64,000 nucleotides of DNA from a phage. Position numbers and translations under genes: made by a program. The notes beneath the pieces are model-generated. The model was not told the DNA's origin. It did not search any database and worked only from the letters and a program-made list of their open reading frames with translations. Shown piece by piece: positions 53,798 through 63,571 of this stretch; the stretch's first letter is position 1; each line of letters starts with the position of its first letter. The stretch lies in the NCBI GenBank assembly GCA_017822615.1, contig GCA_017822615.1_4530.1; one strand, written 5' to 3'.

Positions 53798-53842
53798 AGT
53801 GTTATCCTTTGTTTCGTTTCGTTGTTTGCTGCCAGTGAGTTA

Positions 53843-53877
53843 AATATAATATAACGCCGATCCCCTGTCAATAGGGG
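53843..53877 (-). promoter_or_regulatory. sigma70-type promoter with palindrome around -35
   Basis: Reverse strand TTGACA (53866-53871), 17 nt, TATATT (53843-53848); palindrome cccctgtcaatagggg 53862-53877. Confidence 0.55.
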
Positions 53878-53907
53878 ATAGCGCATTATTTACATTTCTT
53901 TACGTTA

Positions 53908-53929
53908 AAGGGCGCTTAGTGCGCCCCTT
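53908..53929 (-). terminator. terminator-like hairpin (aagggcgc family)
   Basis: aagggcgc-ttagt-gcgcccctt just downstream of 53938..54306; weak T-run. Confidence 0.4.
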
Positions 53930-53937
53930 GTATAATC

Positions 53938-54306
53938 TTACTTTGTGCGGTTGTGAACGTTATCGCGTTCAACCATCAGGGCAAGGCGGATCAGTTGATC
54001 AGTTGTATCGCGTAAATTGTCGGGCCATGTTTTACTGTTCCAGCTATCTAAATTTGATTGAATATAGGTTTCAATGGCTTGATCCATATTATCAAACAAG
54101 TTTTCCTCCAGGCTCTCGGCTGTTTCACACTGGAAAGCATTAGCGACACTATTAATCAATAAGCAAGCCAGTAAATCAGCATTACGCCAATTTTTACGGA
54201 TAGTTTCATCTGTCAGATAACCAACGAGATTAACCTTTGCGCCAGTAGTTGACGTTGCGATCACTTCTTGTGCTTTTTCAAGTGCTTTAATTGCTGATTT
54301 GCTCAT
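53938..54306 (-). CDS. hypothetical early protein
   Basis: ORF track. Confidence 0.6.
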   Translation of the reverse strand: MSKSAIKALEKAQEVIATSTTGAKVNLVGYLTDETIRKNWRNADLLACLLINSVANAFQCETAESLEENLFDNMDQAIETYIQSNLDSWNSKTWPDNLRDTTDQLIRLALMVERDNVHNRTK

Positions 54307-54323
54307 TTTATTTTCCTCTTTGT

Positions 54324-54383
54324 GGGCTTGCTGTATTGCTCGCCCTACGCAATAACTATAAGTTAACAGGAGCTATAAAGCAA
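54324..54383 (-). promoter_or_regulatory. early promoter + 5' GC-hairpin cassette (degenerate hairpin)
   Basis: Reverse strand TTGCTT (54378-54383), 17 nt, TATAGT (54355-54360), then TAGGGCG and weak hairpin 54324-54345. Confidence 0.55.
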
Positions 54384-54384
54384 G

Positions 54385-54618
54385 TTATTTTTTATAAAAT
54401 TTTTCTGCTGTGATATTCTTCCCAGTAGGCTTAACCACTTGCAAGATCTTATCATGTGCCGAACGTCCAAAAGAGTAAGATCCGTACACGGTAAACCAAT
54501 AATCCCCGTTAGGTTGAACGGTTACGGCGGCGTACGGTGTACCTCTTTCATTATCCCCGATAAAGTGAGAAACATTACCGTTAACATTTGGTGTAGTGCT
54601 TTTAATTTGTTCGATCAT
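54385..54618 (-). CDS. hypothetical early protein
   Basis: ORF track. Confidence 0.6.
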   Translation of the reverse strand: MIEQIKSTTPNVNGNVSHFIGDNERGTPYAAVTVQPNGDYWFTVYGSYSFGRSAHDKILQVVKPTGKNITAEKFYKK

Positions 54619-54639
54619 GATATGACTCCTAAATCAGAT

Positions 54640-54695
54640 GGGAAACATTCCCGCCCTACGTGATAAATAATAATGTAAGCGTGATCCGGTGTCAA
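54640..54695 (-). promoter_or_regulatory. early promoter + 5' GC-hairpin cassette
   Basis: Reverse strand TTGACA (54690-54695), 17 nt, TATTAT (54667-54672), TAGGGCGG, hairpin gggaa-aca-ttccc 54640-54652. Confidence 0.6.
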
Positions 54696-55007
54696 TAGGT
54701 GGGATTGTAAAGATTTGATAGTTTATCTCTTTGATGTTTTGTTGTTTGATAGGTGTTAGCTATCAATATATAGCGGGGTCTTCCGGTGATTATCTTCCCC
54801 TGCTCCCAGGTGCCGCCCGTTCAATAAGTATAACAAAAAACAGGACTATTGCAAGCCCTGTTTATTTATCTTAAAACCAGTTGCCAACCGTTTCTAATAG
54901 GTCGCTGACTACCAGGACAACATTGATCAGCACATGTTCAACCATGAAGGGAATAAGCGCCAGCGTTGCTACTACGATCCCCATTGTGATGATTACCTTT
55001 CTCATGG

Positions 55008-55292
55008 TTAGCGGCTTACGTAAGCTTTACCGTTTACGGTCATCGGTATGGCCTCAAGGTCTGGATCTTCCTTAAGGTCGCGTGCAAGCTCACCGCACCG
55101 GATACCCTCGAATCCGTAGTACTCTGTTGTGCCATCCTGGAAAGTTTTAGCGGCAAGGCATAGGCGATAATTAACACCGATCCGGTTCACTGCGTTGATA
55201 TCGGTTAACGTGATGGATTCAGGCAACTCATTAGCCAGTACAGGCGCGTTAATACCAACAACCAGGGCAACTACTGCGATCATCTTTTTCAT
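55008..55292 (-). CDS. secreted early protein (signal peptide)
   Basis: MKKMIAVVALVVGINAPVLA signal-peptide-like N-terminus. Confidence 0.6.
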   Translation of the reverse strand: MKKMIAVVALVVGINAPVLANELPESITLTDINAVNRIGVNYRLCLAAKTFQDGTTEYYGFEGIRCGELARDLKEDPDLEAIPMTVNGKAYVSR

Positions 55293-55322
55293 GCTTTCTA
55301 GCCTCTTCCTATTGCGTTTAAT

Positions 55323-55338
55323 GGGGCGTTACCGCCCC
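55323..55338 (-). promoter_or_regulatory. intercistronic GC hairpin (no promoter)
   Basis: ggggcg-ttac-cgcccc between the stop at 55348 and the next RBS. Confidence 0.5.
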
Positions 55339-55347
55339 GCTTATGGT

Positions 55348-55584
55348 TTATTGATTGATGTTATAATGAAAGTTATTTTCTTCAATAGCTTTTAAAATAA
55401 AAGCTGTGATCGCTTTCGTGTCTACTTGTTCGAACGTATCAGAATAGCACCAATAATGATCATCCCCTACTTTCGGCGGGTAAACCTGGACAAGGAGATC
55501 GCCACCTGGTTGATCTATAAGCTCAACATGCAAGCCGGATGATTCAGCGGTTTTAACGGCGTTTAATACTGTTGCAATACTCAT
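55348..55584 (-). CDS. hypothetical early protein
   Basis: ORF track. Confidence 0.6.
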   Translation of the reverse strand: MSIATVLNAVKTAESSGLHVELIDQPGGDLLVQVYPPKVGDDHYWCYSDTFEQVDTKAITAFILKAIEENNFHYNINQ

Positions 55585-55604
55585 AATCTTTTCCTTTCTG
55601 ATGT

Positions 55605-55620
55605 GGGGCGTTGCCGCCCC
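55605..55620 (-). promoter_or_regulatory. intercistronic GC hairpin (no promoter)
   Basis: ggggcg-ttgc-cgcccc, 8 nt after the upstream stop and about 20 nt before the next RBS. Confidence 0.5.
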
Positions 55621-55628
55621 TTTGTTGA

Positions 55629-55928
55629 TTAGATCGCTGTTTCCAGTAGTTCGGCTAACGTCTTACCGCCTGATAGTTGGTCTAACGTTTGCTCTTCTGG
55701 CAAGAAATTAGCTGATATTAAACCGACTTGATTCCCTTTGTGCCAGTTAGCCTGGCGGATGATTCCATCCTTTAAAGATTTTACCGCCATTGTGCAACCG
55801 TCGCCAAATGATTCATTTTTATGATCCATTACTTCATAAGCGCCCAGCTTGCTGCTGTTAGGCACCATTAACGCGAATACATCACCAACAACCAGTTTTT
55901 CTACGGTAACAATAGCGATAGTTTCCAT
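55629..55928 (-). CDS. hypothetical early protein
   Basis: ORF track. Confidence 0.6.
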   Translation of the reverse strand: METIAIVTVEKLVVGDVFALMVPNSSKLGAYEVMDHKNESFGDGCTMAVKSLKDGIIRQANWHKGNQVGLISANFLPEEQTLDQLSGGKTLAELLETAI

Positions 55929-55947
55929 TTTACTTTCCTCATTATCG

Positions 55948-56003
55948 GCGGCACCATTGCCGCCCTACGTGGTAAATATTAGCACACTGGCGATCTGTGT
56001 CAA
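55948..56003 (-). promoter_or_regulatory. early promoter + 5' GC-hairpin cassette
   Basis: Reverse strand TTGACA (55998-56003); hairpin gcggca-ccat-tgccgc 55948-55963; 35-nt segment identical to 61609-61642. Confidence 0.6.
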
Positions 56004-56009
56004 TACTTT

Positions 56010-56396
56010 TTATTCAATATAAATCAAATTATCTTCACCAATGTAAGCCGACACGTCCGGCATGAATTTAGCGGCATTTGTTAGGCGGTTCGCCGTGTTA
56101 GTGGTGTATATTTCAGGGCGATCCCAAAAGCCTACGCCGTGACTGTTACGGGTAAAATGTAAATCATTCCCGATCTGGTTGGCTGTTGCGCCGTCGCTCA
56201 TTGCCTCAGAGATAGCGGCAAGATTAGCATTAATAAAGGCTGTTACATCCTGGGCGATCCGTTGATCCGCGCTAGGAGAAAAATCATAATCGTCTAAGTT
56301 ATCAATAAAATTACCTTCATGATCCCTTGCTGATTCAGCAAAAATAAAGGCTTCTTTATAGCCGTTGATGATTTCGTTAATGATTTCTGTTTTCAT
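56010..56396 (-). CDS. hypothetical early protein
   Basis: ORF track. Confidence 0.6.
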   Translation of the reverse strand: MKTEIINEIINGYKEAFIFAESARDHEGNFIDNLDDYDFSPSADQRIAQDVTAFINANLAAISEAMSDGATANQIGNDLHFTRNSHGVGFWDRPEIYTTNTANRLTNAAKFMPDVSAYIGEDNLIYIE

Positions 56397-56608
56397 GCTG
56401 TACGCTCGACAATAATAATAGTTTGCGGGATCTCGTTTTCTACTACTAACAAGGCTTTTTTCTGTGTGATAGATATTTTAACACGTTGTAAAGTAGCGGT
56501 GAAATCTTTCATTTCATTATGCGCGGACTTCGTGCAATGCCAGATCTCAGGCTTACCAACTTGTAAGCCGCGTAAAAATTCCGTTTTGCCTGTTTTGTTC
56601 GTGATCAT
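56393..56608 (-). CDS. hypothetical early protein
   Basis: ATG at 56608 after aaggtga; track GTG start 56617. Confidence 0.55.
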   Translation of the reverse strand: MITNKTGKTEFLRGLQVGKPEIWHCTKSAHNEMKDFTATLQRVKISITQKKALLVVENEIPQTIIIVERTA

Positions 56609-56618
56609 TTGTTTCACC

Positions 56619-56723
56619 TTAACCGATACCGTGGGAAGATAGGATCATGTTAGCCATAGTTGCAACCACTCCAACCGATAACGCCAGGCCCACTATTACA
56701 ACCGTGAAAATTTTCTCTAACAT
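56619..56723 (-). CDS. small membrane peptide (34 aa)
   Basis: Reverse-strand ATG after gagggtag; hydrophobic MLEKIFTVVIVGLALSVGVVA; not in track. Confidence 0.4.
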   Translation of the reverse strand: MLEKIFTVVIVGLALSVGVVATMANMILSSHGIG

Positions 56724-56741
56724 GATTCTACCCTCATTAAT

Positions 56742-56803
56742 GGGCGTTGCACCATTGCCCCGCCCTACGAAATACATTCTATCAGATAACAAATTATCGT
56801 CAA
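56742..56803 (-). promoter_or_regulatory. early promoter + 5' GC-hairpin cassette
   Basis: Reverse strand TTGACG (56798-56803), 16 nt, TAGAAT (56776-56781), TAGGGCGG, hairpin region 56742-56765. Confidence 0.55.
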
Positions 56804-56946
56804 GATTTATTTTTTACTTCCCAAACGGAAAATTCACTGCCTATCGGGATCATTCTTTTAATCTTGTTTGCTGCTGCTACCAGATCCACGGCTTGCACTG
56901 TAATAATATAACCAATTGTCGGGGCTGTTGCGTTGAAAGTTTTCAT
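56800..56946 (-). CDS. small hypothetical protein (48 aa)
   Basis: Reverse-strand ATG after aaggataat; stop overlaps the next -35; not in track. Confidence 0.4.
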   Translation of the reverse strand: MKTFNATAPTIGYIITVQAVDLVAAANKIKRMIPIGSEFSVWEVKNKS

Positions 56947-56990
56947 TATATTATCCTTTAATACAGGCGGGATTAATCCCGCCTTATTAA

Positions 56991-57161
56991 TTACTCTTCA
57001 TCGTCGCCGTTATAGTATTCAATGCCGTTTTCATCGGTTACAGTGATGTTAACGCCACCGATAGCGACACGATCACGGGCAAACGTCATAGCTTCATTTA
57101 AATCTTCGGACCAAAAAATATTGTGACCTTTGCGCGATACATAAAACATAGTCGGGGTCAT
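56991..57161 (-). CDS. hypothetical early protein
   Basis: ATG at 57161 (MTPTMFYV...); track TTG start 57245 lies inside the promoter. Confidence 0.55.
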   Translation of the reverse strand: MTPTMFYVSRKGHNIFWSEDLNEAMTFARDRVAIGGVNITVTDENGIEYYNGDDEE

Positions 57162-57184
57162 GATTTGTTTCTCTTCTGTTTTGA

Positions 57185-57245
57185 GCGGTGGACCATTCCG
57201 CCGCCCTATGTGATAAACTTTACTACGTTGTTTGCCTACTGTCAA
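57185..57245 (-). promoter_or_regulatory. early promoter + 5' GC-hairpin cassette
   Basis: Reverse strand TTGACA (57240-57245), 17 nt, TAAAGT (57217-57222), TAGGGCGG, hairpin 57185-57204 with one mismatch. Confidence 0.6.
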
Positions 57246-57246
57246 A

Positions 57247-57531
57247 TTATTTTTTAATGTTTTGCCCTACAAAATTGATCACTTCCTTAAGCTGTTTCTC
57301 TGTCATGATCGTACCTGGTAATTCCTCTTTAATTTCTTCCGGTAAATAAATATTACCGCGCCAGGTTAACAAACAACCGTTTTGATCTTCGCAGATAGAA
57401 TAAGAGAAGATCCACTCATTATCATTTTCAAGCTCCCAAAAACACAAAAAGTCTTCTTTCCCTAAGTTTTCAACGGTTAAGCATAATCCGCGACGTGCTG
57501 CATAATTAGTTAGGCTTTTTGTGATTTTCAT
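57247..57531 (-). CDS. hypothetical early protein
   Basis: ORF track. Confidence 0.6.
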   Translation of the reverse strand: MKITKSLTNYAARRGLCLTVENLGKEDFLCFWELENDNEWIFSYSICEDQNGCLLTWRGNIYLPEEIKEELPGTIMTEKQLKEVINFVGQNIKK

Positions 57532-57552
57532 GATTTTTCTCTCTTCTTGTGA

Positions 57553-57607
57553 GCGGCATCATTGCCGCCCTACGCAATAACTATAACACAATATAAAACC
57601 GGATCAA
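57553..57607 (-). promoter_or_regulatory. early promoter + 5' GC-hairpin cassette
   Basis: Reverse strand TTGATC (57602-57607), 16 nt, TATAGT (57580-57585), hairpin gcggca-tcat-tgccgc 57553-57568. Confidence 0.6.
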
Positions 57608-57816
57608 CCTTTATTTTTCCACGGTGTCAGCTTGTTAATCATTGGTGATAAATAACGTTTACCAACGTAAAACAGTACGCCAACTGATGCAACGGCGGCG
57701 ATCTCATGTAAGGAGGAAGGCCGCGCGGTGTCATAATAGGTACCAATAATAGCAATAGCGGCGACGGCGGTGATGTCAATAATGATTTTTTCTTGTTTTG
57801 CTGTGATAGTGGTCAT
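57604..57816 (-). CDS. small membrane protein
   Basis: Hydrophobic ITAVAAIAIIGTYY and AAVASVGVLFYV. Confidence 0.55.
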   Translation of the reverse strand: MTTITAKQEKIIIDITAVAAIAIIGTYYDTARPSSLHEIAAVASVGVLFYVGKRYLSPMINKLTPWKNKG

Positions 57817-57838
57817 AATGTTTTCTCTTCTGTGTGGT

Positions 57839-57894
57839 CGGGAACTATTCCCGCCCTATGTGATACATCTTAGTAAATCTGGTTATAATGTCAA
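57839..57894 (-). promoter_or_regulatory. early promoter + 5' GC-hairpin cassette
   Basis: Reverse strand TTGACA (57889-57894), 16 nt, TAAGAT (57867-57872), hairpin cgggaa-cta-ttcccg 57839-57853. Confidence 0.65.
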
Positions 57895-57900
57895 CCATTT

Positions 57901-58086
57901 TTAAAGATATTTTATACTGATAACATTTTCAGGTTTTACCTTATTATGCTGTGCATCTATATAGATTAAACCATCCTCAGAAAAGCCCAGGATCACGCCC
58001 TGCGCAATAAAACCGTATTGGTCACGGTAACGCACGGCTATTTTTAATGTTGCATTGTAGGCTGTTTTAAGCTCATTTAAAGTCAT
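57901..58086 (-). CDS. hypothetical early protein
   Basis: ORF track; RBS gaggataaa on reverse strand. Confidence 0.55.
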   Translation of the reverse strand: MTLNELKTAYNATLKIAVRYRDQYGFIAQGVILGFSEDGLIYIDAQHNKVKPENVISIKYL

Positions 58087-58105
58087 TTGTGTTTATCCTC
58101 TAGAT

Positions 58106-58136
58106 ATAAAAAGAAAGGGCGCTTGATGCGCCCTTG
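58106..58136 (-). terminator. rho-independent terminator (aagggcgc family)
   Basis: aagggcgc-ttgat-gcgccctt; reverse strand followed by tttcttttta. Confidence 0.65.
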
Positions 58137-58141
58137 TTATG

Positions 58142-58287
58142 TTAATCCTCTAAATCCATCCAATTATATTTATCACTCTTCCCGCGCTTTGTTTTATTGC
58201 GTTTATCACCTTTGCGGATCACTTCTTCATTCCATGCCTTGCGGATCTTGGAAGATTGAATTTTTTCTGCGCGATTAGATGTATTCA
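58142..58287 (-). CDS. small basic early protein
   Basis: ATG at 58287 (MNTSNRAEK...) after aagaggaaac; track start 58327 lies inside the hairpin element. Confidence 0.5.
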
Positions 58288-58308
58288 TTTTGTTTCCTCT
58301 TTGTATGA

Positions 58309-58361
58309 GCGGCATCATTGCCGCCATGTGGTTAATCTAAACTATTTTGTAAAATTGTCAA
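58309..58361 (-). promoter_or_regulatory. early promoter + 5' GC-hairpin cassette
   Basis: Reverse strand TTGACA (58356-58361), 16 nt, TAGATT (58334-58339), hairpin gcggca-tcat-tgccgc 58309-58324. Confidence 0.6.
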
Positions 58362-58367
58362 GGTTTA

Positions 58368-58721: not shown

Positions 58722-58740
58722 GGTCTTTCTCTCTTTTTGA

Positions 58741-58797
58741 GCGGGAACTATTCCCGCCCTACGTGTAACAGTTTACTAAAAATTAAATCGGTGTCAA
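58741..58797 (-). promoter_or_regulatory. early promoter + 5' GC-hairpin cassette
   Basis: Reverse strand TTGACA (58792-58797), 16 nt, TAAACT (58770-58775), hairpin gcgggaa-cta-ttcccgc 58741-58757. Confidence 0.65.
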
Positions 58798-58800
58798 GCT

Positions 58801-59022
58801 TTATTTTGTTACTACCATTTGGTACCCTGTTTCAATGTTAGTAAATACTGTTATTCCGTCCTGGCGTTCACTCATTAGCATACAAGGCGCTAACATCCTT
58901 TCTACTGCCTTGCACTCATTGTAAACGGCGGTTATGTCTCCTGCGGCCTTGTCTTCTGTGGTGAATGTATCGTTTATGTAAACCTGACCAGCGACAACGG
59001 CGACAATAGCGAAAGTGATCAT
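58801..59022 (-). CDS. hypothetical early protein (MITFA N-terminus)
   Basis: ORF track; first 15 nt of the CDS identical to 59097..59264. Confidence 0.55.
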   Translation of the reverse strand: MITFAIVAVVAGQVYINDTFTTEDKAAGDITAVYNECKAVERMLAPCMLMSERQDGITVFTNIETGYQMVVTK

Positions 59023-59055
59023 GATGTTTCCTTGTTAGTAGTGGTTTCTCTTCTC

Positions 59056-59093
59056 TATAGCGCCCATTATAAGGCGCTATAACGAAAAGTCAA
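59056..59093 (-). promoter_or_regulatory. promoter with palindrome spanning the -10
   Basis: Reverse strand TTGACT (59088-59093), 16 nt, TATAAT (59066-59071) inside inverted repeat tatagcgcc...ggcgctata 59056-59081. Confidence 0.5.
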
Positions 59094-59096
59094 CGA

Positions 59097-59264
59097 TTAT
59101 TTTTTAAGGCTTAAAGTACCTAACTTGTCAGCATGACGCAGACCAGGGAAGATCCATTTTCCTGATTCATCTTTTACAGGGGCTTTAAGCGTAGCGCCCA
59201 GGTTGGCGGCGTTAACTTTACGGGCAACGTTGCGAGCGGCTTCACGGGTAGCGAAAGTGATCAT
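59097..59264 (-). CDS. small early protein (55 aa, MITFA N-terminus)
   Basis: Reverse-strand ATG with the same initiation region as 58801..59022; not in track. Confidence 0.45.
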   Translation of the reverse strand: MITFATREAARNVARKVNAANLGATLKAPVKDESGKWIFPGLRHADKLGTLSLKK

Positions 59265-59288
59265 GATGTTTTCCTCTTCTCTTTGTTA

Positions 59289-59350
59289 GGCGGTGGACCA
59301 TTCCGCCGCCTTGATGTAATACAGTTTACTTTATTTTATTAAGATTGCAA
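59289..59350 (-). promoter_or_regulatory. early promoter + 5' GC-hairpin cassette
   Basis: Reverse strand TTGCAA (59345-59350), 16 nt, TAAACT (59323-59328), hairpin ggcggtgga-cca-ttccgccgcc 59289-59310. Confidence 0.55.
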
Positions 59351-59356
59351 GCGGTT

Positions 59357-59572
59357 TTATGAAATAATTGTCAAAGTAAAATCATAAGACTGATTTAATT
59401 TATATTGTACTTTATTGCCGTAGTAGTCACCTTTACGTAAAGATCCTCGAATACCTATTACATCCTTAACGTCTTTTAAATTTTTCACGCCTGTAATGTC
59501 TTTATTGAAATACTCGTCATCTGAAAATAAAACTTGACTTGCATTTTTTAACAGTGTGCGGATATTAGCCAT
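59357..59572 (-). CDS. hypothetical early protein
   Basis: ATG at 59572 (MANIRTLL...); track start 59620 lies inside the hairpin element. Confidence 0.5.
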   Translation of the reverse strand: MANIRTLLKNASQVLFSDDEYFNKDITGVKNLKDVKDVIGIRGSLRKGDYYGNKVQYKLNQSYDFTLTIIS

Positions 59573-59595
59573 TTTGATAATCCCTCTTACTATGA

Positions 59596-59651
59596 GCGGC
59601 ACTATTGCCGCCCTATGCATTACATTTTACTGATTTTAGTTATCTTGTCAA
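59596..59651 (-). promoter_or_regulatory. early promoter + 5' GC-hairpin cassette
   Basis: Reverse strand TTGACA (59646-59651), 16 nt, TAAAAT (59624-59629), hairpin gcggca-ctat-tgccgc 59596-59611. Confidence 0.65.
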
Positions 59652-59658
59652 TATTATT

Positions 59659-59886
59659 TTAGTTTAATTCATCCAGGCATAACAGGCGATCAACGTTGAG
59701 ATCGGTTAGGCTGATGGTCGGCACCTGGTAGGATTCGATGTACTCGACGCTTGCATATTCTCCAAAATTAGCAATAGCCCACTTATTCAAGATCTCACAT
59801 ACATCATTAATCTTTTTGTTTGTTACAACTGCTACAACCTGGGAATAGCCAACGGTGCCGGATACGCGAACAATATTGATAGCCAT
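59659..59886 (-). CDS. hypothetical early protein
   Basis: ORF track. Confidence 0.6.
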   Translation of the reverse strand: MAINIVRVSGTVGYSQVVAVVTNKKINDVCEILNKWAIANFGEYASVEYIESYQVPTISLTDLNVDRLLCLDELN

Positions 59887-59909
59887 AATCTTTAATCTCT
59901 CTGTTGTGA

Positions 59910-59968
59910 GCGGGAAACCATTTCCCGCCCTATGTGATACATCTTACACTAATTTTAAACGTTGTCAA
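59910..59968 (-). promoter_or_regulatory. early promoter + 5' GC-hairpin cassette
   Basis: Reverse strand TTGACA (59963-59968), 16 nt, TAAGAT (59941-59946), hairpin gcgggaaa-cca-tttcccgc 59910-59928. Confidence 0.65.
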
Positions 59969-59977
59969 CTGTTTTTA

Positions 59978-60217
59978 TTACATTCCAACCATCGCGGCAC
60001 GGATTGCAGTTTTACTATACTTGAAACCGTCTGGAGTTTTATCTTGTCCAGTTTGTTCCAGGAATAACATCATATCACGGGCAGCATCATTACGATTAGT
60101 ATTAGCGGCGATAAATTCTTTCGCCAACCGATATAATGATTCGTCGTTATTAATCCAAAGGCTTACATTCCAATGAGTTTTATTTTTGTGACCTAAGAAC
60201 ATTTTTGATTTAGCCAT
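59978..60217 (-). CDS. hypothetical early protein
   Basis: ORF track. Confidence 0.6.
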   Translation of the reverse strand: MAKSKMFLGHKNKTHWNVSLWINNDESLYRLAKEFIAANTNRNDAARDMMLFLEQTGQDKTPDGFKYSKTAIRAAMVGM

Positions 60218-60241
60218 GATGTTAATCTCTTTTTCAGTGAG

Positions 60242-60300
60242 GCGGGAAGTGTTCCCGCTCTCTATGTAATACAGTTTACTCTTTTTATTCGTGCTGTCAA
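60242..60300 (-). promoter_or_regulatory. early promoter + 5' GC-hairpin cassette
   Basis: Reverse strand TTGACA (60295-60300), 16 nt, TAAACT (60273-60278), hairpin gcgggaa-gtg-ttcccgc 60242-60258. Confidence 0.65.
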
Positions 60301-60306
60301 TGCTTT

Positions 60307-60672
60307 TTATAAATCTTTTTTACGTTTAACATCGCTTGCATGACTGTATACAGTGATCCCATTGTCACGGCAAAAACGGGAAAGATACGCGCCGCGTGAA
60401 AACTCTTTACCTTCCATATTAATAACCTTGCTAAATTCTTCCAGGGCGACGGTATCAAAATGATCACCATAACCATATTGAAACGGAACGTTAACCACCT
60501 CGATCAGTTTACCGCCGATCTCAACGTCAACCATTAAAGAAAAATATGTGTTACCGTAGGACTGTTGAAACCAACGACGGGCGCTAATATGCACCGCCTC
60601 AATGCTGGATAATTCAATTTTAGCCGTGTCAGCCAGGGTAGCATAAGAGGAAACATTGATATTAATAGCCAT
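60307..60672 (-). CDS. hypothetical early protein
   Basis: ORF track. Confidence 0.6.
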   Translation of the reverse strand: MAININVSSYATLADTAKIELSSIEAVHISARRWFQQSYGNTYFSLMVDVEIGGKLIEVVNVPFQYGYGDHFDTVALEEFSKVINMEGKEFSRGAYLSRFCRDNGITVYSHASDVKRKKDL

Positions 60673-60698
60673 GATATTACTCTCTTTTTTTGGTTAGT

Positions 60699-60750
60699 GG
60701 GAAGTATTCCCGATAAAAGTTATTATGCTTATACTATCACTCATTGTCAA
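60699..60750 (-). promoter_or_regulatory. early promoter + 5' GC-hairpin cassette (short hairpin)
   Basis: Reverse strand TTGACA (60745-60750); hairpin gggaa-gta-ttccc 60699-60711. Confidence 0.55.
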
Positions 60751-60769
60751 TAGTATAAGATTAAAACTT

Positions 60770-60949
60770 TTAACGATAATCGTTATAGGCTTTATTGACC
60801 TGGCGAATGTAACATTCGAAAGCAAGATCAATGTATTCGTATTCACGCACATAATCACCATAGGTCACTACATACATTTTTAAAGTTTCCTCATAAGCCA
60901 GGAGGATCGAATCTAAACCTATAATCTCAGTTTTTGCAATGATAGTCAT
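60770..60949 (-). CDS. small early protein (59 aa)
   Basis: Reverse-strand ATG; fills the gap between cassettes; not in track. Confidence 0.45.
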   Translation of the reverse strand: MTIIAKTEIIGLDSILLAYEETLKMYVVTYGDYVREYEYIDLAFECYIRQVNKAYNDYR

Positions 60950-60970
60950 GATGTTAACCTTTTATTGTTG

Positions 60971-61026
60971 GCGGCACCATTGCCGCCCTACGTGATAAAC
61001 TACACCAGAATTTTAAACAGTGTCAA
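60971..61026 (-). promoter_or_regulatory. early promoter + 5' GC-hairpin cassette
   Basis: Reverse strand TTGACA (61021-61026); hairpin gcggca-ccat-tgccgc 60971-60986, then TAGGGCGG. Confidence 0.6.
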
Positions 61027-61031
61027 CCGTT

Positions 61032-61394
61032 TTATTCGTAAATTTTACCGCTTTCGGCCCATACCATAACGCGGCGCATACTATCCCAAGTGTTCTGATC
61101 CAGGTTTAAGCCGTGCAACTCTTCGGTACTTCCCAGACCAGGTACCGCCTTGTTGTAAGTAGCATATAAGCGCCCTTGATACTCATACGCCAGGATGAGA
61201 TCCGTTTGAATCATCTTTTTAAGCATAGCATTAAGCATCATGTTAGCGGCATGTTGATCACGTTTTAGCGGTAACATGTCAATAAGGGCGCGATAAGCTG
61301 AAACATGAATATCAACCGTTTCACGTGGTAAATTTTTCATATCATCGCGGAAGGATACCAGGTTTAACATGATAGTATTGATTTGCTTGCTCAT
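61032..61394 (-). CDS. hypothetical early protein
   Basis: ORF track. Confidence 0.6.
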   Translation of the reverse strand: MSKQINTIMLNLVSFRDDMKNLPRETVDIHVSAYRALIDMLPLKRDQHAANMMLNAMLKKMIQTDLILAYEYQGRLYATYNKAVPGLGSTEELHGLNLDQNTWDSMRRVMVWAESGKIYE

Positions 61395-61416
61395 TGTGTT
61401 ACCCTTTTTTGTTTTG

Positions 61417-61476
61417 GCGGGGAAGTATTCCGCCGCCCTATGTGATACATCTTATCAGATTAAAAAACGTTGTCAA
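61417..61476 (-). promoter_or_regulatory. early promoter + 5' GC-hairpin cassette
   Basis: Reverse strand TTGACA (61471-61476), 16 nt, TAAGAT (61449-61454); imperfect hairpin 61417-61436. Confidence 0.6.
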
Positions 61477-61484
61477 GAATATTT

Positions 61485-61580
61485 TTAGAAAATAATAGCC
61501 GCTACTACAATCCAAAATGGAACGGCTAGAATGATAGCGTTAATCGTTCCAACCGTCAAGCTATTTTCTTTATTAATCAT
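61485..61580 (-). CDS. small membrane peptide (31 aa)
   Basis: Reverse-strand ATG; hydrophobic GTINAIILAVPFWIVVAAIIF; not in track. Confidence 0.35.
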   Translation of the reverse strand: MINKENSLTVGTINAIILAVPFWIVVAAIIF

Positions 61581-61609
61581 TGTAAGCCTCTTGCATAATT
61601 TCACTATGA

Positions 61610-61666
61610 GCGGCACCATTGCCGCCCTACGTGGTAAATATTATGCCAGTGGCGGCGATATGTCAA
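61610..61666 (-). promoter_or_regulatory. early promoter + 5' GC-hairpin cassette
   Basis: Reverse strand TTGACA (61661-61666), 17 nt, TAATAT (61638-61643), hairpin gcggca-ccat-tgccgc 61610-61625. Confidence 0.65.
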
Positions 61667-62220
61667 AGACTATTTTCAAAGTTTTCTAGTGCGATCCTTT
61701 TTTCTTCCTCTGTCGGCTGATAATCAGGAAAAGCATCAACACACAACAACGGCGGGATCTCTTCGTACTCTTCCTCTTCCGTTGTCTCCTCGTCTTCCTC
61801 CTGGGCTATGGCTGCAATTTTGGCTAATTTTCTTTCAGCTTGAATCAATTTACCATCAAGTACGTTTTTTGCCATGTTGTAAGCGGTCCAGGTGATGCGC
61901 TTACTTTCCAGGGCCTGATCGAGCGCCGCTATCTTGCTGGGGTATTCATCCAGGACACGAAAAGCCGGATCAACTTTGTACAAAGGATTATCTTTCGCGC
62001 CGTCGCTCGCATCTTCCGCACTGGATAAATCAGCGTTACCATTTGCCAGCCAGCCAGGGCGCACATAACGCGCTTTTACGTTGCCGTTACTACGTGCTAA
62101 TCTGTTACCTATTTGCTCACCGCTATATCCCGTGGATTCATCGATAAGATGATCGGGAATGATGCGCGGATCATCTGCTTCATGTTTTACCCAAGACTGG
62201 ATCACATATTCGCGGCCCAT
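61663..62220 (-). CDS. hypothetical early protein with acidic C-terminus
   Basis: ATG at 62220 (MGREYV...); track GTG start 62229 overlaps the upstream gene. Confidence 0.6.
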   Translation of the reverse strand: MGREYVIQSWVKHEADDPRIIPDHLIDESTGYSGEQIGNRLARSNGNVKARYVRPGWLANGNADLSSAEDASDGAKDNPLYKVDPAFRVLDEYPSKIAALDQALESKRITWTAYNMAKNVLDGKLIQAERKLAKIAAIAQEEDEETTEEEEYEEIPPLLCVDAFPDYQPTEEEKRIALENFENSL

Positions 62221-62221
62221 A

Positions 62222-62479
62222 TTAACCACCTTTTTTCAACAATTGGCATACTTTAAAAAGACTTGCTGAATCCTTGCAAGGGTAGAAAGATGTACGATAA
62301 TCACGTACGCCAACCTTGCGGATCTCGATGTTCTCGCATGTTGTTTGATCAAAGATATTTATTTCATCACGCCCCCTTATATAAACATAGTGGGGATGTA
62401 TTAACGCATATTTTGCTAATCTGTAAAAAGCGTTATCTTTGAACGCGATCACGTGACCTTTTAATTTGATGTAAAACAT
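62222..62479 (-). CDS. hypothetical early protein
   Basis: ORF track. Confidence 0.6.
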   Translation of the reverse strand: MFYIKLKGHVIAFKDNAFYRLAKYALIHPHYVYIRGRDEINIFDQTTCENIEIRKVGVRDYRTSFYPCKDSASLFKVCQLLKKGG

Positions 62480-62497
62480 TCTACCACCTTACAAATA

Positions 62498-62552
62498 GCG
62501 GGAACTATTCCCGCTTTATGTAACATATTAACAAATTATTCGTTAATGTCAA
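62498..62552 (-). promoter_or_regulatory. early promoter + 5' GC-hairpin cassette
   Basis: Reverse strand TTGACA (62547-62552), 16 nt, TAATAT (62525-62530), hairpin gcgggaa-cta-ttcccgc 62498-62514. Confidence 0.65.
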
Positions 62553-62555
62553 GCC

Positions 62556-62828
62556 TTAAAGCAAAAACGCTACATCTTGCGCTTTTAGTGTAGTATCAAC
62601 CATTTTCGGGCTTTTATAATCAACAAAGCGCGCGGTTTTTTCAATAGCGAAACCGAGATAATCTTGCTTGTTGAAATTACATTCTTTCTTAAATGTTTCC
62701 CGTGCAATAGCGATCGCTGCGTCCAGGGATAAACGCCCGTCAATATTGATATTAGCGAAAGATCCGCCACCGCTCATAGGTTTACCAGTTGTGCCAGCTA
62801 CGATCATTGTTGCGCTATATGATGCCAT
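62556..62828 (-). CDS. hypothetical early protein
   Basis: ORF track. Confidence 0.6.
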   Translation of the reverse strand: MASYSATMIVAGTTGKPMSGGGSFANINIDGRLSLDAAIAIARETFKKECNFNKQDYLGFAIEKTARFVDYKSPKMVDTTLKAQDVAFLL

Positions 62829-62853
62829 GATGATAATCTCTCTTCTGTTACGA

Positions 62854-62912
62854 GCGGGAAACCACTTCCCGCCCTATGTGATACATCTTATCAGGTTGTT
62901 GTTTGTTGTCAA
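62854..62912 (-). promoter_or_regulatory. early promoter + 5' GC-hairpin cassette
   Basis: Reverse strand TTGACA (62907-62912), 16 nt, TAAGAT (62885-62890), hairpin gcgggaa-accac-ttcccgc 62854-62872. Confidence 0.65.
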
Positions 62913-62918
62913 TAGTTT

Positions 62919-63117
62919 TTATTCTATTCCTGCGATTTGATTAACGCGCTTGCATTTTGTAGCGTGCTGGTCTTCTGTAATGACTCCCATTTCTAACAGG
63001 GAATCAATGAAAGATAAAACCGTTTCATGATCATCCTGGGGGTGACTGAACTCAGTAAAACCGTTTACCACTACGTTGATTTGTCCAGCTTTCGCCACAA
63101 TGTGCAATGTTGCCATG
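62919..63117 (-). CDS. hypothetical early protein
   Basis: ATG at 63117 (MATLHIV...); track TTG start 63194 lies inside the promoter -35. Confidence 0.55.
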
Positions 63118-63137
63118 ATCTTAACTCCAAATAGTGA

Positions 63138-63194
63138 GCGGCACCATTGCCGCCCTACAAGATGAATACTACGCCGCCGCCTGGTTAACGTCAA
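63138..63194 (-). promoter_or_regulatory. early promoter + 5' GC-hairpin cassette
   Basis: Reverse strand TTGACG (63189-63194), 17 nt, TAGTAT (63166-63171), hairpin gcggca-ccat-tgccgc 63138-63153. Confidence 0.6.
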
Positions 63195-63302
63195 CCATTT
63201 TTCAATCTTTTTTATTTTCTTTTTGCTTGCTATATATAAAGAAAAGGGCTATTATCTTTCTACCGCGCCAACCAGGGCGCACAACAAAGAAAGGGCGATA
63301 TC

Positions 63303-63569: not shown

Positions 63570-63571
63570 TC

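What the first reader, a model, noticed from the sequence alone, without database searches (positions are those of the whole stretch)
53800..63200. About 22 copies of a promoter + conserved GC-hairpin cassette, one per small early gene
Across about 10 kb of minus-strand small genes, nearly every gene has its own TTGACA-16/17-TAnnAT promoter followed within about 8 nt by TAGGGCGG and a perfect 6-8 bp GC stem-loop, then an RBS about 20 nt downstream. Stem sequences differ between copies (GCGGCA, GCGGGAA, GGGGCG) but pairing is preserved, which argues for a selected structure. Two copies (55323-55338, 55605-55620) lack a promoter, so the hairpin is a 5'-UTR or intercistronic element in its own right. 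Sub-families share 30-35 nt identical blocks (for example 55947-55980 and 61609-61642). Possible roles are a 5'-terminal stabiliser, an RNA processing site, or an operator for a phage or host regulator. No equivalent element in T4 early promoters is known to me.
Basis: seen in the sequence. Interest (0 to 1): 0.75.

Follow-up and report, generated by a model that had tools for sequence, protein, structure and literature searches.

The report
Repeated promoter–hairpin cassettes before phage genes
About twenty small genes of a phAPEC8-like coliphage each carry the same ready-made control unit (host-type promoter, GC hairpin at the start of the transcript, ribosome site); this resembles the promoter/stem-loop cassettes already described in T4-like phages, and related phages have gained and lost genes at these units.

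Summary
On the minus strand, 54.3-63.2 kb, 20 genes are each preceded by TTGACA-16/17-TAnnnT. A conserved R-TAGGGCGG box starts 7-8 nt after the -10, and the GC hairpin (7-10 bp) it opens starts 10 nt after the -10. An unstructured A-rich ribosome site follows. Two further promoters carry a hairpin inside the promoter, and three GC hairpins have no promoter.

The context given was wrong: this is a Phapecoctavirus (phAPEC8-like), not a T4-like phage. An equivalent class is also known, the PeSL "promoter-early stem-loop" cassettes of T4-like phages.

The cassette occurs only in this one ~9 kb array of a 151 kb genome. It recurs in Phapecoctavirus and Justusliebigvirus, and partly in Vequintavirus. 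Pairing is kept through compensatory changes, but the GCGG/CCGC core never varies.

Gene gains and losses between relatives break inside or next to the hairpins, and one window cassette is a demonstrable chimera.

Unlike PeSLs, the hairpin sits at a fixed place after the predicted transcription start and has no U-tract. It is therefore most likely a 5'-proximal mRNA-protecting structure rather than a terminator. That function is inferred, not shown.

Verdict: a new variant of a known kind, of moderate interest.

The parts
63117..63194 (-). Cassette 1: TTGACG-17-TAGTAT, GTAGGGCGG box, hairpin 63136-63155 (GGGCGGCA-AUGG-UGCCGCUC), ATG 63116
   Evidence: MFE -14.6, z -2.2; model hit
62829..62912 (-). 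Cassette 2: TTGACA-16-TAAGAT, ATAGGGCGG, hairpin 62852-62874 (GGGCGGGAAG...UUUCCCGCUC), ATG 62828
   Evidence: -15.8, z -2.8
62480..62552 (-). Cassette 3, box variant: TTGACA-16-TAATAT, AUAAAGCGGG, hairpin 62497-62515, ATG 62479
   Evidence: -12.4, z -3.0
61581..61666 (-). Cassette 4: TTGACA-17-TAATAT, GTAGGGCGG, hairpin 61608-61627, ATG 61580. It shares a 34-nt identical block with cassette 18
61395..61476 (-). Cassette 5: TTGACA-16-TAAGAT, ATAGGGCGG, bulged hairpin 61416-61437 (GGCGGCGGAA...UUCCCCGCC), ATG 61394
60950..61026 (-). Cassette 6: TTGACA, weak -10 (TGTAGT or TAGTTT), GTAGGGCGG, hairpin 60970-60987, ATG 60949
60673..60750 (-). Cassette 7, decayed: TTGACA-17-CATAAT, no box, weak 5-bp hairpin 60699-60711, ATG 60672
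   Evidence: -5.5, z -0.9
60218..60300 (-). Cassette 8, box variant: TTGACA-16-TAAACT, AUAGAGAGCGGG, hairpin 60239-60262 with one bulge, ATG 60217
   Evidence: -15.3, z -4.75
59887..59968 (-). Cassette 9: TTGACA-16-TAAGAT, ATAGGGCGG, 10-bp hairpin 59908-59930, ATG 59886
   Evidence: -15.8, z -3.8
59573..59651 (-). Cassette 10: TTGACA-16-TAAAAT, ATAGGGCGG, hairpin 59594-59613 (loop AAUAGU; loop inverted in phage SKA64), ATG 59572
59265..59350 (-). Cassette 11, box variant: TTGCAA-16-TAAACT, AUCAAGGCGG, hairpin 59288-59311 with a C.A mismatch, ATG 59264
   Evidence: -15.8, z -3.6
59023..59093 (-). Promoter with the hairpin over the -10 (TTGACT-16-TATAAT inside UUAUAGCGCCU...GGGCGCUAUAG, 59055-59082). 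This is the classical PeSL-type arrangement. ATG 59022
58722..58797 (-). Cassette 12: TTGACA-16-TAAACT, GTAGGGCGG, hairpin 58739-58759, ATG 58721
   Evidence: -14.9, z -4.0
58289..58361 (-). Cassette 13, shortened box: TTGACA-16-TAGATT, CAUGGCGGCA, hairpin 58308-58325, ATG 58288
   Evidence: -11.4, z -3.5
58115..58135 (-). Canonical intrinsic terminator inside the array (AAGGGCGC-AUCAA-GCGCCCUU followed by UCUUUUUAUA). It serves as a contrast to the cassette hairpins
57817..57894 (-). Cassette 14: TTGACA-16-TAAGAT, ATAGGGCGG, hairpin 57836-57855 (one G.A mismatch), ATG 57816
   Evidence: -10.7, z -3.3
57532..57607 (-). Cassette 15, a chimera: TTGATC-16-TATAGT, GTAGGGCGG, hairpin 57551-57570, ATG 57531. 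The promoter half matches one Mt1B1_P17 cassette and the leader and gene match another one 1.2 kb away
   Evidence: -14.4, z -4.2
57162..57245 (-). Cassette 16: TTGACA-17-TAAAGT, ATAGGGCGG, hairpin 57183-57206 (GGGCGGCGGA...UCCACCGCUC, C.A mismatch), ATG 57161
   Evidence: (best model hit, 50.4 bits)
56965..56984 (-). Promoter-less intercistronic GC hairpin AGGCGGGA-UUAA-UCCCGCCU
   Evidence: E 0.93
56724..56803 (-). Cassette 17: TTGACG-16-TAGAAT, GTAGGGCGG, hairpin 56742-56765 with an internal loop, ATG 56723
   Evidence: -17.6, z -3.3
55929..56003 (-). Cassette 18: TTGACA-16-TAATAT, GTAGGGCGG, hairpin 55947-55964, ATG 55928
   Evidence: -14.2, z -3.6
55605..55620 (-). Promoter-less hairpin GGGGCG-GCAA-CGCCCC (GNRA loop) before the gene starting at 55584
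   Evidence: a near-identical hairpin follows a promoter in phage alia
55323..55338 (-). Promoter-less hairpin GGGGCG-GUAA-CGCCCC before the gene starting at 55292
54838..54863 (-). Terminator (hairpin + U-run) whose loop and tail hold TTGCAA-16-TATACT. Breakpoints against SKA64 and phiWec179 recur here
54619..54695 (-). Cassette 19: TTGACA-17-TATTAT, GTAGGGCGG, decayed hairpin 54636-54656 (UUCCCAUCU here; intact UUCCCGCCU in relatives), ATG 54618
   Evidence: z +0.2
54307..54384 (-). Cassette 20: weak -35 (TTGCTT)-17-TATAGT, GTAGGGCGA, hairpin 54324-54345 with an internal loop, ATG 54306
   Evidence: -11.5, z -4.1
53798..53879 (-). Promoter TTGACA-17-TATATT with a hairpin over the -35 (AUCCCCU-AUUGAC-AGGGGAU, 53860-53879) and no downstream hairpin. 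ATG 53797. Lower edge of the array

Best explanation
This is a standardised regulatory cassette, repeated before about 20 small genes of unknown function in a single array of a phAPEC8-like phage.

Each copy has four parts:
- a near-consensus sigma-70 promoter with an A/T-rich upstream stretch;
- a purine placed where transcription should start, followed by UAGGGCGG;
- a 7-10 bp GC hairpin that begins at about nucleotide +4 of the RNA;
- a 15-27 nt unstructured A-rich leader carrying the ribosome site.

Shown here: the anatomy, its restriction to one array, the conservation of pairing, and the use of the cassettes as crossover points between related phages.

Inferred, RNA level: every transcript started at a cassette promoter begins with this hairpin. 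The hairpin prolongs the life of these presumably immediate-early mRNAs. It does so by hindering 5'-end-dependent attack (RppH and the RNase E 5' sensor) or RNase E scanning from the 5' end. The ribosome site stays open.

Inferred, other transcripts: read-through from upstream promoters meets no U-tract, so the hairpin does not terminate it. In such transcripts, and at the promoter-less copies, the hairpin would act as an internal barrier to nucleases.

Inferred, DNA level: the 25-35 nt stretches that are identical between copies, centred on the hairpin, supply the homology for recombination. That recombination deletes, inserts and swaps gene-plus-cassette modules, as proposed for PeSLs.
For: Anatomy and chance
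- The -10 to GGGCGG distance is 10 +/- 1 nt in nearly all copies. This holds although the 16-17 nt spacers and the 6-8 nt after the -10 differ between copies.
- The same 10-nt offset is found in Vequintavirus NHEP1, with different flanking sequence.

Predicted leaders
- 18 of 20 fold into one 5' hairpin starting at nt 2-5. The ribosome site and start codon are unpaired.
- When the first base is G, G1 and U2 can also pair, leaving no free 5' tail.

Not a terminator
- The 8 nt after the stems hold 0-4 T, mostly 0-2.
- The scan classed only one cassette hairpin (the decayed copy at 54652-54640) as terminator-like on this strand. It did call canonical terminators at 58135, 54863 and 53364.

Structure is kept
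- 70 distinct sense copies from 16 loci give 91% standard pairs against 82.5% shuffled (0 of 500 shuffles reach it).
- The pair at columns 15-40 reads CG 33, GC 11, GU 11, AU 9, unpaired 0.
- The outer pairs switch between GC, GU and AU.
- Between orthologues, hairpin identity is 0.85-0.95. That is above the promoter spacer (0.78-0.90) and third codon positions (0.75-0.93).

Restriction to one array
- All model hits in the 151-kb Mt1B1_P17 genome lie at 3.8-12.3 kb of the record.
- In the window, 14 of 21 promoter-like sites in the array are followed by a hairpin, against 6 of 103 elsewhere.

Recombination joints
- 11 of 38 alignment-block ends lie inside a GC hairpin, which together cover 6% of the region.
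- 15 of 38 lie within 10 nt, against 12% expected (p about 2e-5).
- The window cassette at 57607 is a promoter/leader chimera of two Mt1B1_P17 cassettes that flank a 1.2-kb block.

Established knowledge
- RppH and RNase E need single-stranded 5' ends, which explains stabilisation by 5' structures (PMC3997798).
- RppH disfavours a pyrimidine at nucleotide 2, and the cassette has U there (PMC8833179).
- Obstacles protect downstream sites from scanning RNase E (PMC11194081 abstract).
Against: - No transcription start has been mapped. The start could be 2 nt further upstream (A at the 6th nt after the -10), leaving about 5 free nucleotides.
- Even the preferred start leaves about 3 unpaired nucleotides (R-U-A). 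RppH and RNase E work with 2 or more and prefer 3 or more, so 5'-end blocking would be partial at best.
- The GCGG/CCGC core and the UAGGGCGG box are conserved in sequence, beyond what pairing alone requires. That hints at sequence-specific recognition or at homogenisation by recombination.
- 2-3 copies have decayed (60750, 54695, partly 57894) without loss of the gene, so the hairpin is not indispensable.
- Covariation rests on a handful of alleles that spread by recombination, and on an alignment fitted to the structure.
- 'Early' expression is inferred from promoter type only.
Confidence: 0.55

Rival explanations
1. The hairpin is a transcriptional attenuator or insulator, as proposed for PeSLs. 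It damps read-through from the many upstream tandem promoters, so that each gene is driven mainly by its own promoter.
For: - Twenty co-directional strong promoters with only three or four canonical terminators among them would otherwise pile up transcription downstream.
- In RB49 a PeSL stem-loop placed between a promoter and lacZ cut expression about as much as rrnB T1 (PMC2839356).
- Two promoters in the window (59093, 53871) and the terminator at 54863 do have the classical PeSL layout.
Against: - There is no U-tract after the cassette hairpins: 0-4 T in 8 nt, mostly 0-2.
- The phage uses canonical hairpin + U-run terminators where it does terminate.
- A terminator at +25 would also stop transcripts from the cassette's own promoter.
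- The fixed offset from the -10 has no explanation under this model. In RB49 the stem-loop position varies.
Confidence: 0.18
2. The box plus hairpin is a recognition site for a dedicated factor that controls the whole gene set together. This could be a phage or host RNA-binding protein or nuclease acting on the 5' leader, or a DNA-binding repressor sitting at +4 to +25. Its role would be, for example, to shut off or selectively protect immediate-early messages.
For: - Sequence conservation exceeds what the structure needs. R-UAGGGCGG and the GCGG/CCGC core are almost invariant across Phapecoctavirus and Justusliebigvirus.
- Loop motifs AAUGGU and AAUAGU recur.
- The element is confined to one co-regulated-looking array.
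Against: - Inner-stem sequences differ between alleles with pairing kept, which argues against a double-stranded DNA operator.
- Loops are found inverted at orthologous sites without loss of the cassette.
- Variants with other boxes (AAAGCGGG, AAGGCGG, GCCGGG) occupy the same position.
- No candidate binding protein was identified. The array proteins tested have no known domains.
Confidence: 0.15
3. The hairpin has no role in gene expression. It is kept because it is the recombination site itself: a structure-prone repeat that mobilises single-gene modules, integron- or MITE-like. It spreads for that reason alone.
For: - Crossovers fall inside the hairpins, and a chimeric cassette exists.
- Loop inversions show that the palindromes undergo DNA-level events.
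- A Stephanstirmvirinae-type cassette turns up in a Vequintavirus.
Against: - The identical stretch shared by neighbouring cassettes is longest at the hairpin. Ordinary homologous recombination would therefore cross there anyway, without any special site.
- All copies have one orientation and a fixed offset relative to a promoter, which points to a transcript-level constraint.
- No recombinase was identified.
- Compensatory changes imply selection on pairing.
Confidence: 0.09
4. The hairpin plus the following GCUCACAACA is a nut- or rrn-like antitermination site (boxB + boxA). It would make polymerase resistant to the terminators further down the array.
For: - A hairpin just downstream of an early promoter, followed in many copies by CGCUC-A-AACA, loosely recalls boxB-boxA (by eye).
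- Terminators do lie downstream in the array.
Against: - The boxA consensus GCTCTTTAACAA with up to 3 mismatches gives 95 hits against 93.8 expected. None of them sits at a cassette.
- The loops are not of the GNRA-like pentaloop type.
- Rfam finds nothing.
- Each gene has its own promoter, so antitermination is not needed.
Confidence: 0.03

Closest known systems
PeSL (promoter-early stem-loop) cassettes of T4-like phages RB49/phi1, PST/T4 and nt-1/KVP40 (Arbiol et al. 2010, PMC2839356; Comeau et al. 2014, PMC4122927)
   Same: - It is a composite repeated motif: A/T-rich stretch, sigma-70-like promoter, stable stem-loop, Shine-Dalgarno and start codon.
- It is clustered in a plastic region of small genes without known function.
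- Indels and replacements between close relatives have their crossovers inside the motifs, including inside the stem-loop, and chimeric motifs result.
   Different: - Here the stem-loop sits at one fixed place, 10 nt after the -10. It is therefore inside the cassette's own transcript. In PeSLs it occupies five variable positions, all before the transcription start.
- It has no U-tract and is unlikely to terminate.
- It carries a conserved box, R-TAGGGCGG.
- The host lineage is Stephanstirmvirinae (and partly Vequintavirinae), not T4-like.
- Mini-circles were not tested.
5'-terminal stabilising stem-loops of E. coli and phage mRNAs. The ompA and papA leaders are covered in the review PMC3997798. 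The T7 gene 10 leader GGGAGACCACAACGGUUUCCC is from my own knowledge.
   Same: - A stable hairpin sits at or within a few nucleotides of the 5' end.
- An open ribosome site follows it.
- As in T7 late transcripts, it is hard-wired to a phage promoter.
   Different: - Function is untested here.
- The predicted free 5' tail is about 3 nt (range 0-5), which is borderline for blocking RppH and RNase E.
- The element is repeated about 20 times with a conserved sequence box, and it doubles as a recombination joint.
Intrinsic (Rho-independent) terminators and intercistronic stabiliser hairpins (REP-like)
   Same: - It is a GC-rich hairpin between genes.
- The promoter-less copies (56984, 55620, 55338) sit just after stop codons.
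   Different: - There is no U-run on the transcribed strand.
- Most copies are tied to a promoter at a fixed distance.

Membership tests
PeSL (promoter-early stem-loop cassette) | Sigma-70-like promoter with an A/T-rich upstream region | tested here: met
   - 20 cassettes match TTGACA-16/17-TAnnnT, mostly at 9-11 of 12 positions.
- The 25 nt upstream are 73% A+T, against 59-61% background.
- These are consensus matches only; promoter activity was not tested.
PeSL (promoter-early stem-loop cassette) | Adjacent sequence able to form a stable stem-loop | tested here: met
   Mean hairpin energy is -12.3 kcal/mol. The leaders fold better than shuffles in 18 of 20 copies.
PeSL (promoter-early stem-loop cassette) | Shine-Dalgarno sequence and start codon at the 3' end of the motif | tested here: met
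   An ATG lies 15-27 nt after the stem, preceded by a purine-rich AGAGA/GAGG stretch.
PeSL (promoter-early stem-loop cassette) | Concentrated in a hyperplastic region of small ORFan genes | tested here: met
   - All hits in a 151-kb relative lie in one ~9-kb array.
- Ten array proteins match only PHROGs of unknown function and have no Pfam domain above the curated threshold.
PeSL (promoter-early stem-loop cassette) | Indels and replacements between close relatives have crossovers in the motifs, giving chimeric motifs | tested here: met
   - 28 of 38 block ends lie within 35 nt of a cassette (29% expected).
- 11 of 38 lie inside a hairpin (6% expected).
- A chimeric cassette is shown at 57607.
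PeSL (promoter-early stem-loop cassette) | Stem-loop placed upstream of, within, or just after the promoter hexamers but before the transcription start (five subclasses) | tested here: not met
   - In all 20 cassettes the stem starts 6-11 nt after the -10 (GGGCGG at 10 nt) and ends about 30 nt after it. It must therefore be transcribed.
- The feature is met only by the two extra promoters at 59093 and 53871.
PeSL (promoter-early stem-loop cassette) | Stem-loop acts as a terminator or attenuator | not testable with these tools
   The sequence argues against it: there is no U-tract. Only an assay can decide.
PeSL (promoter-early stem-loop cassette) | Formation of excised mini-circles by recombination between neighbouring motifs | not testable with these tools
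   This needs inverse PCR on infected cells or virions.
5'-terminal stabilising stem-loop (ompA / papA / T7 g10 type) | Hairpin at the very 5' end, with too few unpaired nucleotides for RppH or the RNase E 5' sensor (fewer than 2) | tested here: inconclusive
   - The predicted start (a purine 8 nt after the -10) leaves about 3 free nt.
- G-start copies can pair G1 and U2, leaving 0 free.
- An alternative start leaves about 5 free.
- Thresholds are taken from PMC8833179. The start site is not mapped.
5'-terminal stabilising stem-loop (ompA / papA / T7 g10 type) | Lengthens mRNA half-life in a stem-dependent way | not testable with these tools
   This needs rifampicin-chase experiments with stem and compensatory mutants.
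Intrinsic terminator | GC-rich hairpin followed directly by a U-run | tested here: not met
   - On the transcribed strand, only one of the 20 cassette hairpins (the decayed copy at 54652-54640) scored terminator-like.
- The true terminators at 58135, 54863 and 53364 did score.
- T counts after the cassette stems are 0-4 of 8.
Any curated RNA family (Rfam 15) | Match to a covariance model | tested here: not met
   No match at E up to 1 in 52000-64000, either strand.
nut / rrn antitermination site (boxB + boxA) | boxA consensus next to the hairpin | tested here: not met
   GCTCTTTAACAA with up to 3 mismatches gives 95 hits against 93.8 expected. None is at a cassette.

The most novel reading that the evidence does not exclude
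The invariant leader (R-UAGGGCGG plus hairpin, fixed at +4) is a molecular tag read by a dedicated factor. One possibility is a protein that selectively protects, translates or later destroys the whole immediate-early message set. Another is a structure-specific recombination activity that moves promoter-plus-gene modules between phages in an integron-like way. Either would make this a coordinated system rather than a passive hairpin.
Probability: 0.15. Interest if true: 0.75.

Novelty: new variant of a known kind. Interest (0 to 1): 0.45.

Why it matters
- It would extend 'mobile regulatory cassettes' beyond T4-like phages to the phAPEC8/phi92 group, and partly to the rV5 group. These phages are widely isolated for therapy.
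- It gives a concrete sequence-level account of why their early regions differ so much between isolates. Genes come and go as promoter-hairpin-gene modules, with crossovers in the hairpin.
- The fixed, transcribed position of the hairpin separates two roles that the PeSL concept merges: RNA-level function and DNA-level recombination.
- The cassette is a natural, 20-fold replicated, self-contained expression unit (promoter, 5' hairpin, open ribosome site). It is easy to test, and possibly useful as an insulated expression part.
- For annotators, the covariance model marks the immediate-early array and the correct start codons of its tiny genes.

Tried and rejected
- Rfam scan of 52-64 kb at E up to 1: nothing.
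- Terminator reading: the consensus scan and T counts show no U-tract.
- nut/rrn boxA idea: no enrichment, and no hit at a cassette.
- Fur-box idea for the palindromes at 63.83-63.94 kb: no match within 3 mismatches.
- MAFFT alignments of the cassettes (A1, A2) put the 3' arms of long and short stems out of register. I replaced them with a gap-free 13-sequence seed (A3), a covariance model (R1) and a model-guided alignment (A4).
- A4 contained about 22 antisense hits of the palindromes, which would inflate covariation. I recounted on the 70 distinct sense rows and also give the tool's count on all rows.
- My first relaxed promoter/hairpin screen of all loci was too noisy and was tightened.
- The IMG/VR pattern scan returned many single-copy hits in unrelated contigs. 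I treated these as likely chance and did not pursue them. Only the ~150-kb contigs hold multiple copies.
- PHROGs and Pfam scans of ten array proteins gave no function.
- Literature searches for this cassette in phAPEC8, phi92, rV5 or Phapecoctavirus, for the motif string, and for transcriptomes of these phages found nothing relevant. The PVP-SE1 genome paper is not held.
- A 125-nt non-coding stretch at 54700-54826 gave no convincing fold.

Full report
WHAT IS THERE

Reading the minus strand from 63.2 kb down to 54.3 kb shows a run of about 30 short genes. Twenty of them are preceded by the same unit:
- an A/T-rich stretch (73% A+T in the 25 nt before the -35, against 59-61% background);
- TTGACA (or a one-off variant), a 16-17 nt spacer and TAnnnT;
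- 6-8 variable nucleotides, then a purine followed by TAGGGCGG;
- a GC hairpin of 7-10 pairs whose 5' arm begins with the GGGCGG of the box;
- 15-27 nt of A-rich sequence holding a purine-rich ribosome site, then ATG.

Two further promoters have a hairpin over the -10 (59093) or over the -35 (53871). Three GC hairpins have no promoter (56965-56984, 55605-55620, 55323-55338). Canonical hairpin + U-run terminators lie at 58135, 54863 and 53364. Eight genes have no promoter of their own.

IS IT MORE THAN CHANCE

Yes.
- TAGGGCG occurs 15 times on the minus strand, all between 54347 and 63157, and never on the plus strand.
- The composite promoter + box pattern has 11 exact matches, against none in 100 shuffles.
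- A covariance model of the hairpin and its flanks, run with all filters off over the 64 kb, gives 15 matches at E<0.01. All are in the array and on the minus strand, and nothing elsewhere is below E=1.
- Of the promoter-like sites in the array, 14 of 21 are followed by a strong hairpin in the right place, against 6 of 103 elsewhere in the window.

WHICH GENOME

The region is 95-98% identical to Phapecoctavirus genomes (Mt1B1_P17, tuntematon, ESCO37, REC; subfamily Stephanstirmvirinae). It is not from a T4-like phage.

GEOMETRY AND THE PREDICTED RNA

The GGGCGG of the box starts 10 +/- 1 nt after the -10 in nearly all copies. This holds although the sequences between -35 and -10, and between the -10 and the box, differ freely among copies. 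The purine before UAGGGCGG is the 8th nucleotide after the -10 and follows a pyrimidine. From general knowledge of sigma-70 start-site choice, that is where a start is expected. An A two positions upstream is an alternative. No start has been mapped.

With the preferred start, the RNA begins R-U-A and then the hairpin. When the first base is G, G1 and U2 can pair with the AC after the 3' arm, leaving no free tail.

Folding the 20 predicted leaders gives a single 5' hairpin in 18 of them (in 17 of these the MFE is -10.7 to -17.6 kcal/mol). Most z-scores lie between -2.2 and -4.75, and the ribosome site and start codon are unpaired. Copies 60750 and 54695 are decayed.

The 8 nt after the stems hold 0-4 T, mostly 0-2. 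The terminator scan classed only one cassette hairpin on this strand (the decayed copy at 54652-54640) as terminator-like.

IS THE STRUCTURE SELECTED

I collected copies from the window and from 15 related loci: four GenBank phages and IMG/VR contigs of about 150 kb. I aligned them to the model.

On the 70 distinct sense-strand copies:
- 91% of cells are standard pairs, against 82.5% when 3' partners are shuffled (0 of 500 shuffles reach the observed value). The figure is 35-61% when partners are slid by 1-2 columns.
- The tool's own count, on all rows, agrees.
- The inner pair (columns 15-40) reads C-G in 33 copies, G-C in 11, G-U in 11, A-U in 9, and is unpaired in none.
- The two outer pairs switch among G-C, G-U and A-U.
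- One position tolerates C.A or G.A mismatches.

The four core pairs (GCGG/CCGC) practically never vary, so they say nothing about structure. They show that sequence is conserved too.

Caveats: the alignment is fitted to the structure, and the copies are related and exchange by recombination. The number of independent events is therefore small, a handful of alleles.

Between orthologous copies in four relatives, hairpin identity is 0.85-0.95. That exceeds the promoter spacer (0.78-0.90) and third codon positions (0.75-0.93), and is below the -35 (0.97-1.0).

DISTRIBUTION

- In the complete 151-kb genome of Mt1B1_P17, every model hit lies between about 3.8 and 12.3 kb of the record. The other long arrays of small genes, which are tightly packed without intergenic gaps, have none.
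- A single cassette used as a BLAST query finds 132 phage records. They are Phapecoctavirus at high identity and Justusliebigvirus (phi92-like) at 74-80%, each with several copies.
- In Justusliebigvirus alia the array has the same layout with further alleles. One is a GCGGGGCAACGCCCC hairpin behind a promoter. It is near-identical to the hairpin that stands without a promoter at 55605-55620 in the window.
- In Vequintavirus NHEP1 (rV5-like), some early promoters have GC hairpins that again start exactly 10 nt after the -10, with different flanks. Other promoters there have none.

RECOMBINATION JOINTS

I aligned the window array with Mt1B1_P17, SKA64 and phiWec179. This breaks it into colinear blocks separated by insertions, deletions and replacements.
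- Of the 38 internal block ends, 11 lie inside a GC hairpin. The hairpins together cover 6% of the region.
- 15 lie within 10 nt of a hairpin (12% expected; binomial p about 2e-5). The ends are not fully independent.
- 28 lie within 35 nt of a cassette (29% expected).
- Adjacent blocks often overlap by the hairpin itself (57553-57573, 63129-63149, 55948-55979).

The clearest case is the cassette at 57607. Its promoter half equals one Mt1B1_P17 cassette. Its leader and gene equal another cassette 1.2 kb away. The switch falls within the shared hairpin.

At two orthologous cassettes the loop is exactly reverse-complemented between phages while the stems and flanks are unchanged (AATAGC/GCTATT and AATAGT/ACTATT). 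So the palindromes also undergo DNA-level flips, and loop polarity is not essential.

HOW IT MOST LIKELY WORKS

Shown: the anatomy, the restriction to one array, the preservation of pairing, and the use of the cassettes as crossover points.

Inferred:
- Transcripts start just before the hairpin.
- The hairpin protects the message.
- The genes are immediate-early.

[quoted passage not shown] In the PeSLs of RB49 the stem-loop position varies. The missing U-tract argues against termination. A terminator at +25 would also defeat the cassette's own promoter.

RppH and RNase E need single-stranded 5' ends, which explains why 5' structures stabilise mRNAs (PMC3997798). RppH also disfavours a pyrimidine at position 2 (PMC8833179), and the cassette has U there. 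Obstacles near the 5' end shield downstream sites from scanning RNase E (PMC11194081 abstract).

Against a simple 5'-end block: about 3 free nucleotides would still be usable by both enzymes. I therefore hold the stabiliser reading at moderate confidence.

The conserved box remains unexplained by structure alone. It may reflect homogenisation by recombination, a constraint on the initially transcribed sequence, or a specific binder.

COMPARISON WITH WHAT IS KNOWN

The closest described thing is the PeSL of T4-like phages. It is a composite of A/T-rich region, sigma-70 promoter, stem-loop and Shine-Dalgarno sequence, concentrated among ORFans in hyperplastic regions. It recombines to delete, insert and exchange genes (PMC2839356, PMC4122927). 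Its authors expected 'analogous conserved regulatory cassettes' elsewhere.

The window's element meets those features. The exceptions are:
- The position of the stem-loop differs: transcribed and fixed here, before the start and variable there.
- Its likely role differs as a result.
- The host lineage is different.

The terminator function and the mini-circles could not be tested.

For the hairpin itself, the nearest functional analogues are the 5' stem-loops of ompA and papA, and of the T7 gene 10 leader (the last from my own knowledge).

I found no paper in the held library that describes this cassette in phAPEC8-, phi92- or rV5-like phages. The rV5 paper lists promoters and terminators only. 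The library lacks many subscription-journal genome papers, so absence there is weak evidence.

VERDICT

This is a real, strongly non-random, structured element. It is best filed as a new variant of a known kind: a PeSL-like regulatory and recombination cassette with a transcribed 5' hairpin. The T4 framing and the claim that nothing equivalent is known were not. Interest is moderate. The concept exists, but the fixed 5' hairpin, the conserved box and the very clean comparative evidence make it an attractive, easily tested system.

Noticed in passing
window 63828-63936: Four copies of a ~22-bp near-palindrome (TAAATGAGAATGATTGTCATTTA and variants) lie at 29-bp spacing. They sit about 650 bp upstream of the first cassette, beyond a divergent plus-strand ORF (63303-63569). 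They look Fur-box-like by eye, but nothing matches the Fur consensus within 3 mismatches. The equivalent place in phage alia is annotated 'repeat_region'. They may be an operator array or an origin.
   Followed up: partly
L043 11108-11141 vs L017 658-691; L045 (SKA64) orthologue of window 59594-59613: At two orthologous cassettes the hairpin loop is exactly reverse-complemented between phages (AATAGC/GCTATT and AATAGT/ACTATT). Stems and flanks are identical. These are small inversions across the palindrome arms.
   Followed up: yes
window 59001-59043 and 59243-59285: Two neighbouring genes (ATG at 59264 and at 59022) share an identical 22-nt block, AACATCATGATCACTTTCGCTA. It runs across the start codon, so both proteins begin MITFA. 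Breakpoints against Mt1B1_P17 and phiWec179 fall at 59027-59042, so homology used for shuffling can extend into the first codons.
   Followed up: partly
window 54700-54863: The terminator hairpin at 54838-54863 carries a -35 (TTGCAA) in its loop, with TATACT 16 nt on. A GGGCGG-containing 125-nt stretch without an ORF follows. SKA64 and phiWec179 both have extra genes inserted exactly at 54861-54863. This could be a cassette remnant or a small RNA. No convincing fold was found.
   Followed up: partly
window 55323-55338, 55605-55620, 56965-56984: The promoter-less hairpins have no U-run on the gene strand, but the scan scores them as terminator-like on the opposite (plus) strand. Two of them have GNRA tetraloops (GCAA, GUAA), unlike the cassette loops.
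   Followed up: no
window 54636-54656 (cassette 19): The hairpin is decayed in this phage (3' arm TTCCCATCT). It is intact (TTCCCGCCT) at the same cassette in Mt1B1_P17, phiWec179 and an IMG/VR contig. An individual copy can therefore lose the stem.
   Followed up: partly
L050 (Vequintavirus NHEP1) 8979-9060: One cassette in this rV5-like phage matches the Stephanstirmvirinae type through the promoter hexamers, box and hairpin (TAAGAT-GTATCACATAGGGCGGGAAATGGTTTCCCGCTCACAAC). Its neighbours have other leaders or none. This suggests transfer of a cassette, perhaps with its gene, between subfamilies.
   Followed up: partly
window 12816-12900 (+) and 7330-7400 (+): Two strong promoter-like sites outside the array are also followed by hairpins of unrelated sequence. 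One is GGGAGGAGGTGAGTCCTCCC, 14 nt after TATAAT. The other is GCCTACCTACTTAATGAGGTAGGC followed by a T-run.
   Followed up: no
L002 (IMG/VR contig of 148.8 kb) 1330-1359, 4581-4613: Here the cassettes have the box changed to GCCGGG or GGCCGGG, with the 3' arm changed to match (CCCGGC, CCCGGTC). This is the only departure from the otherwise invariant GCGG/CCGC core.
   Followed up: no
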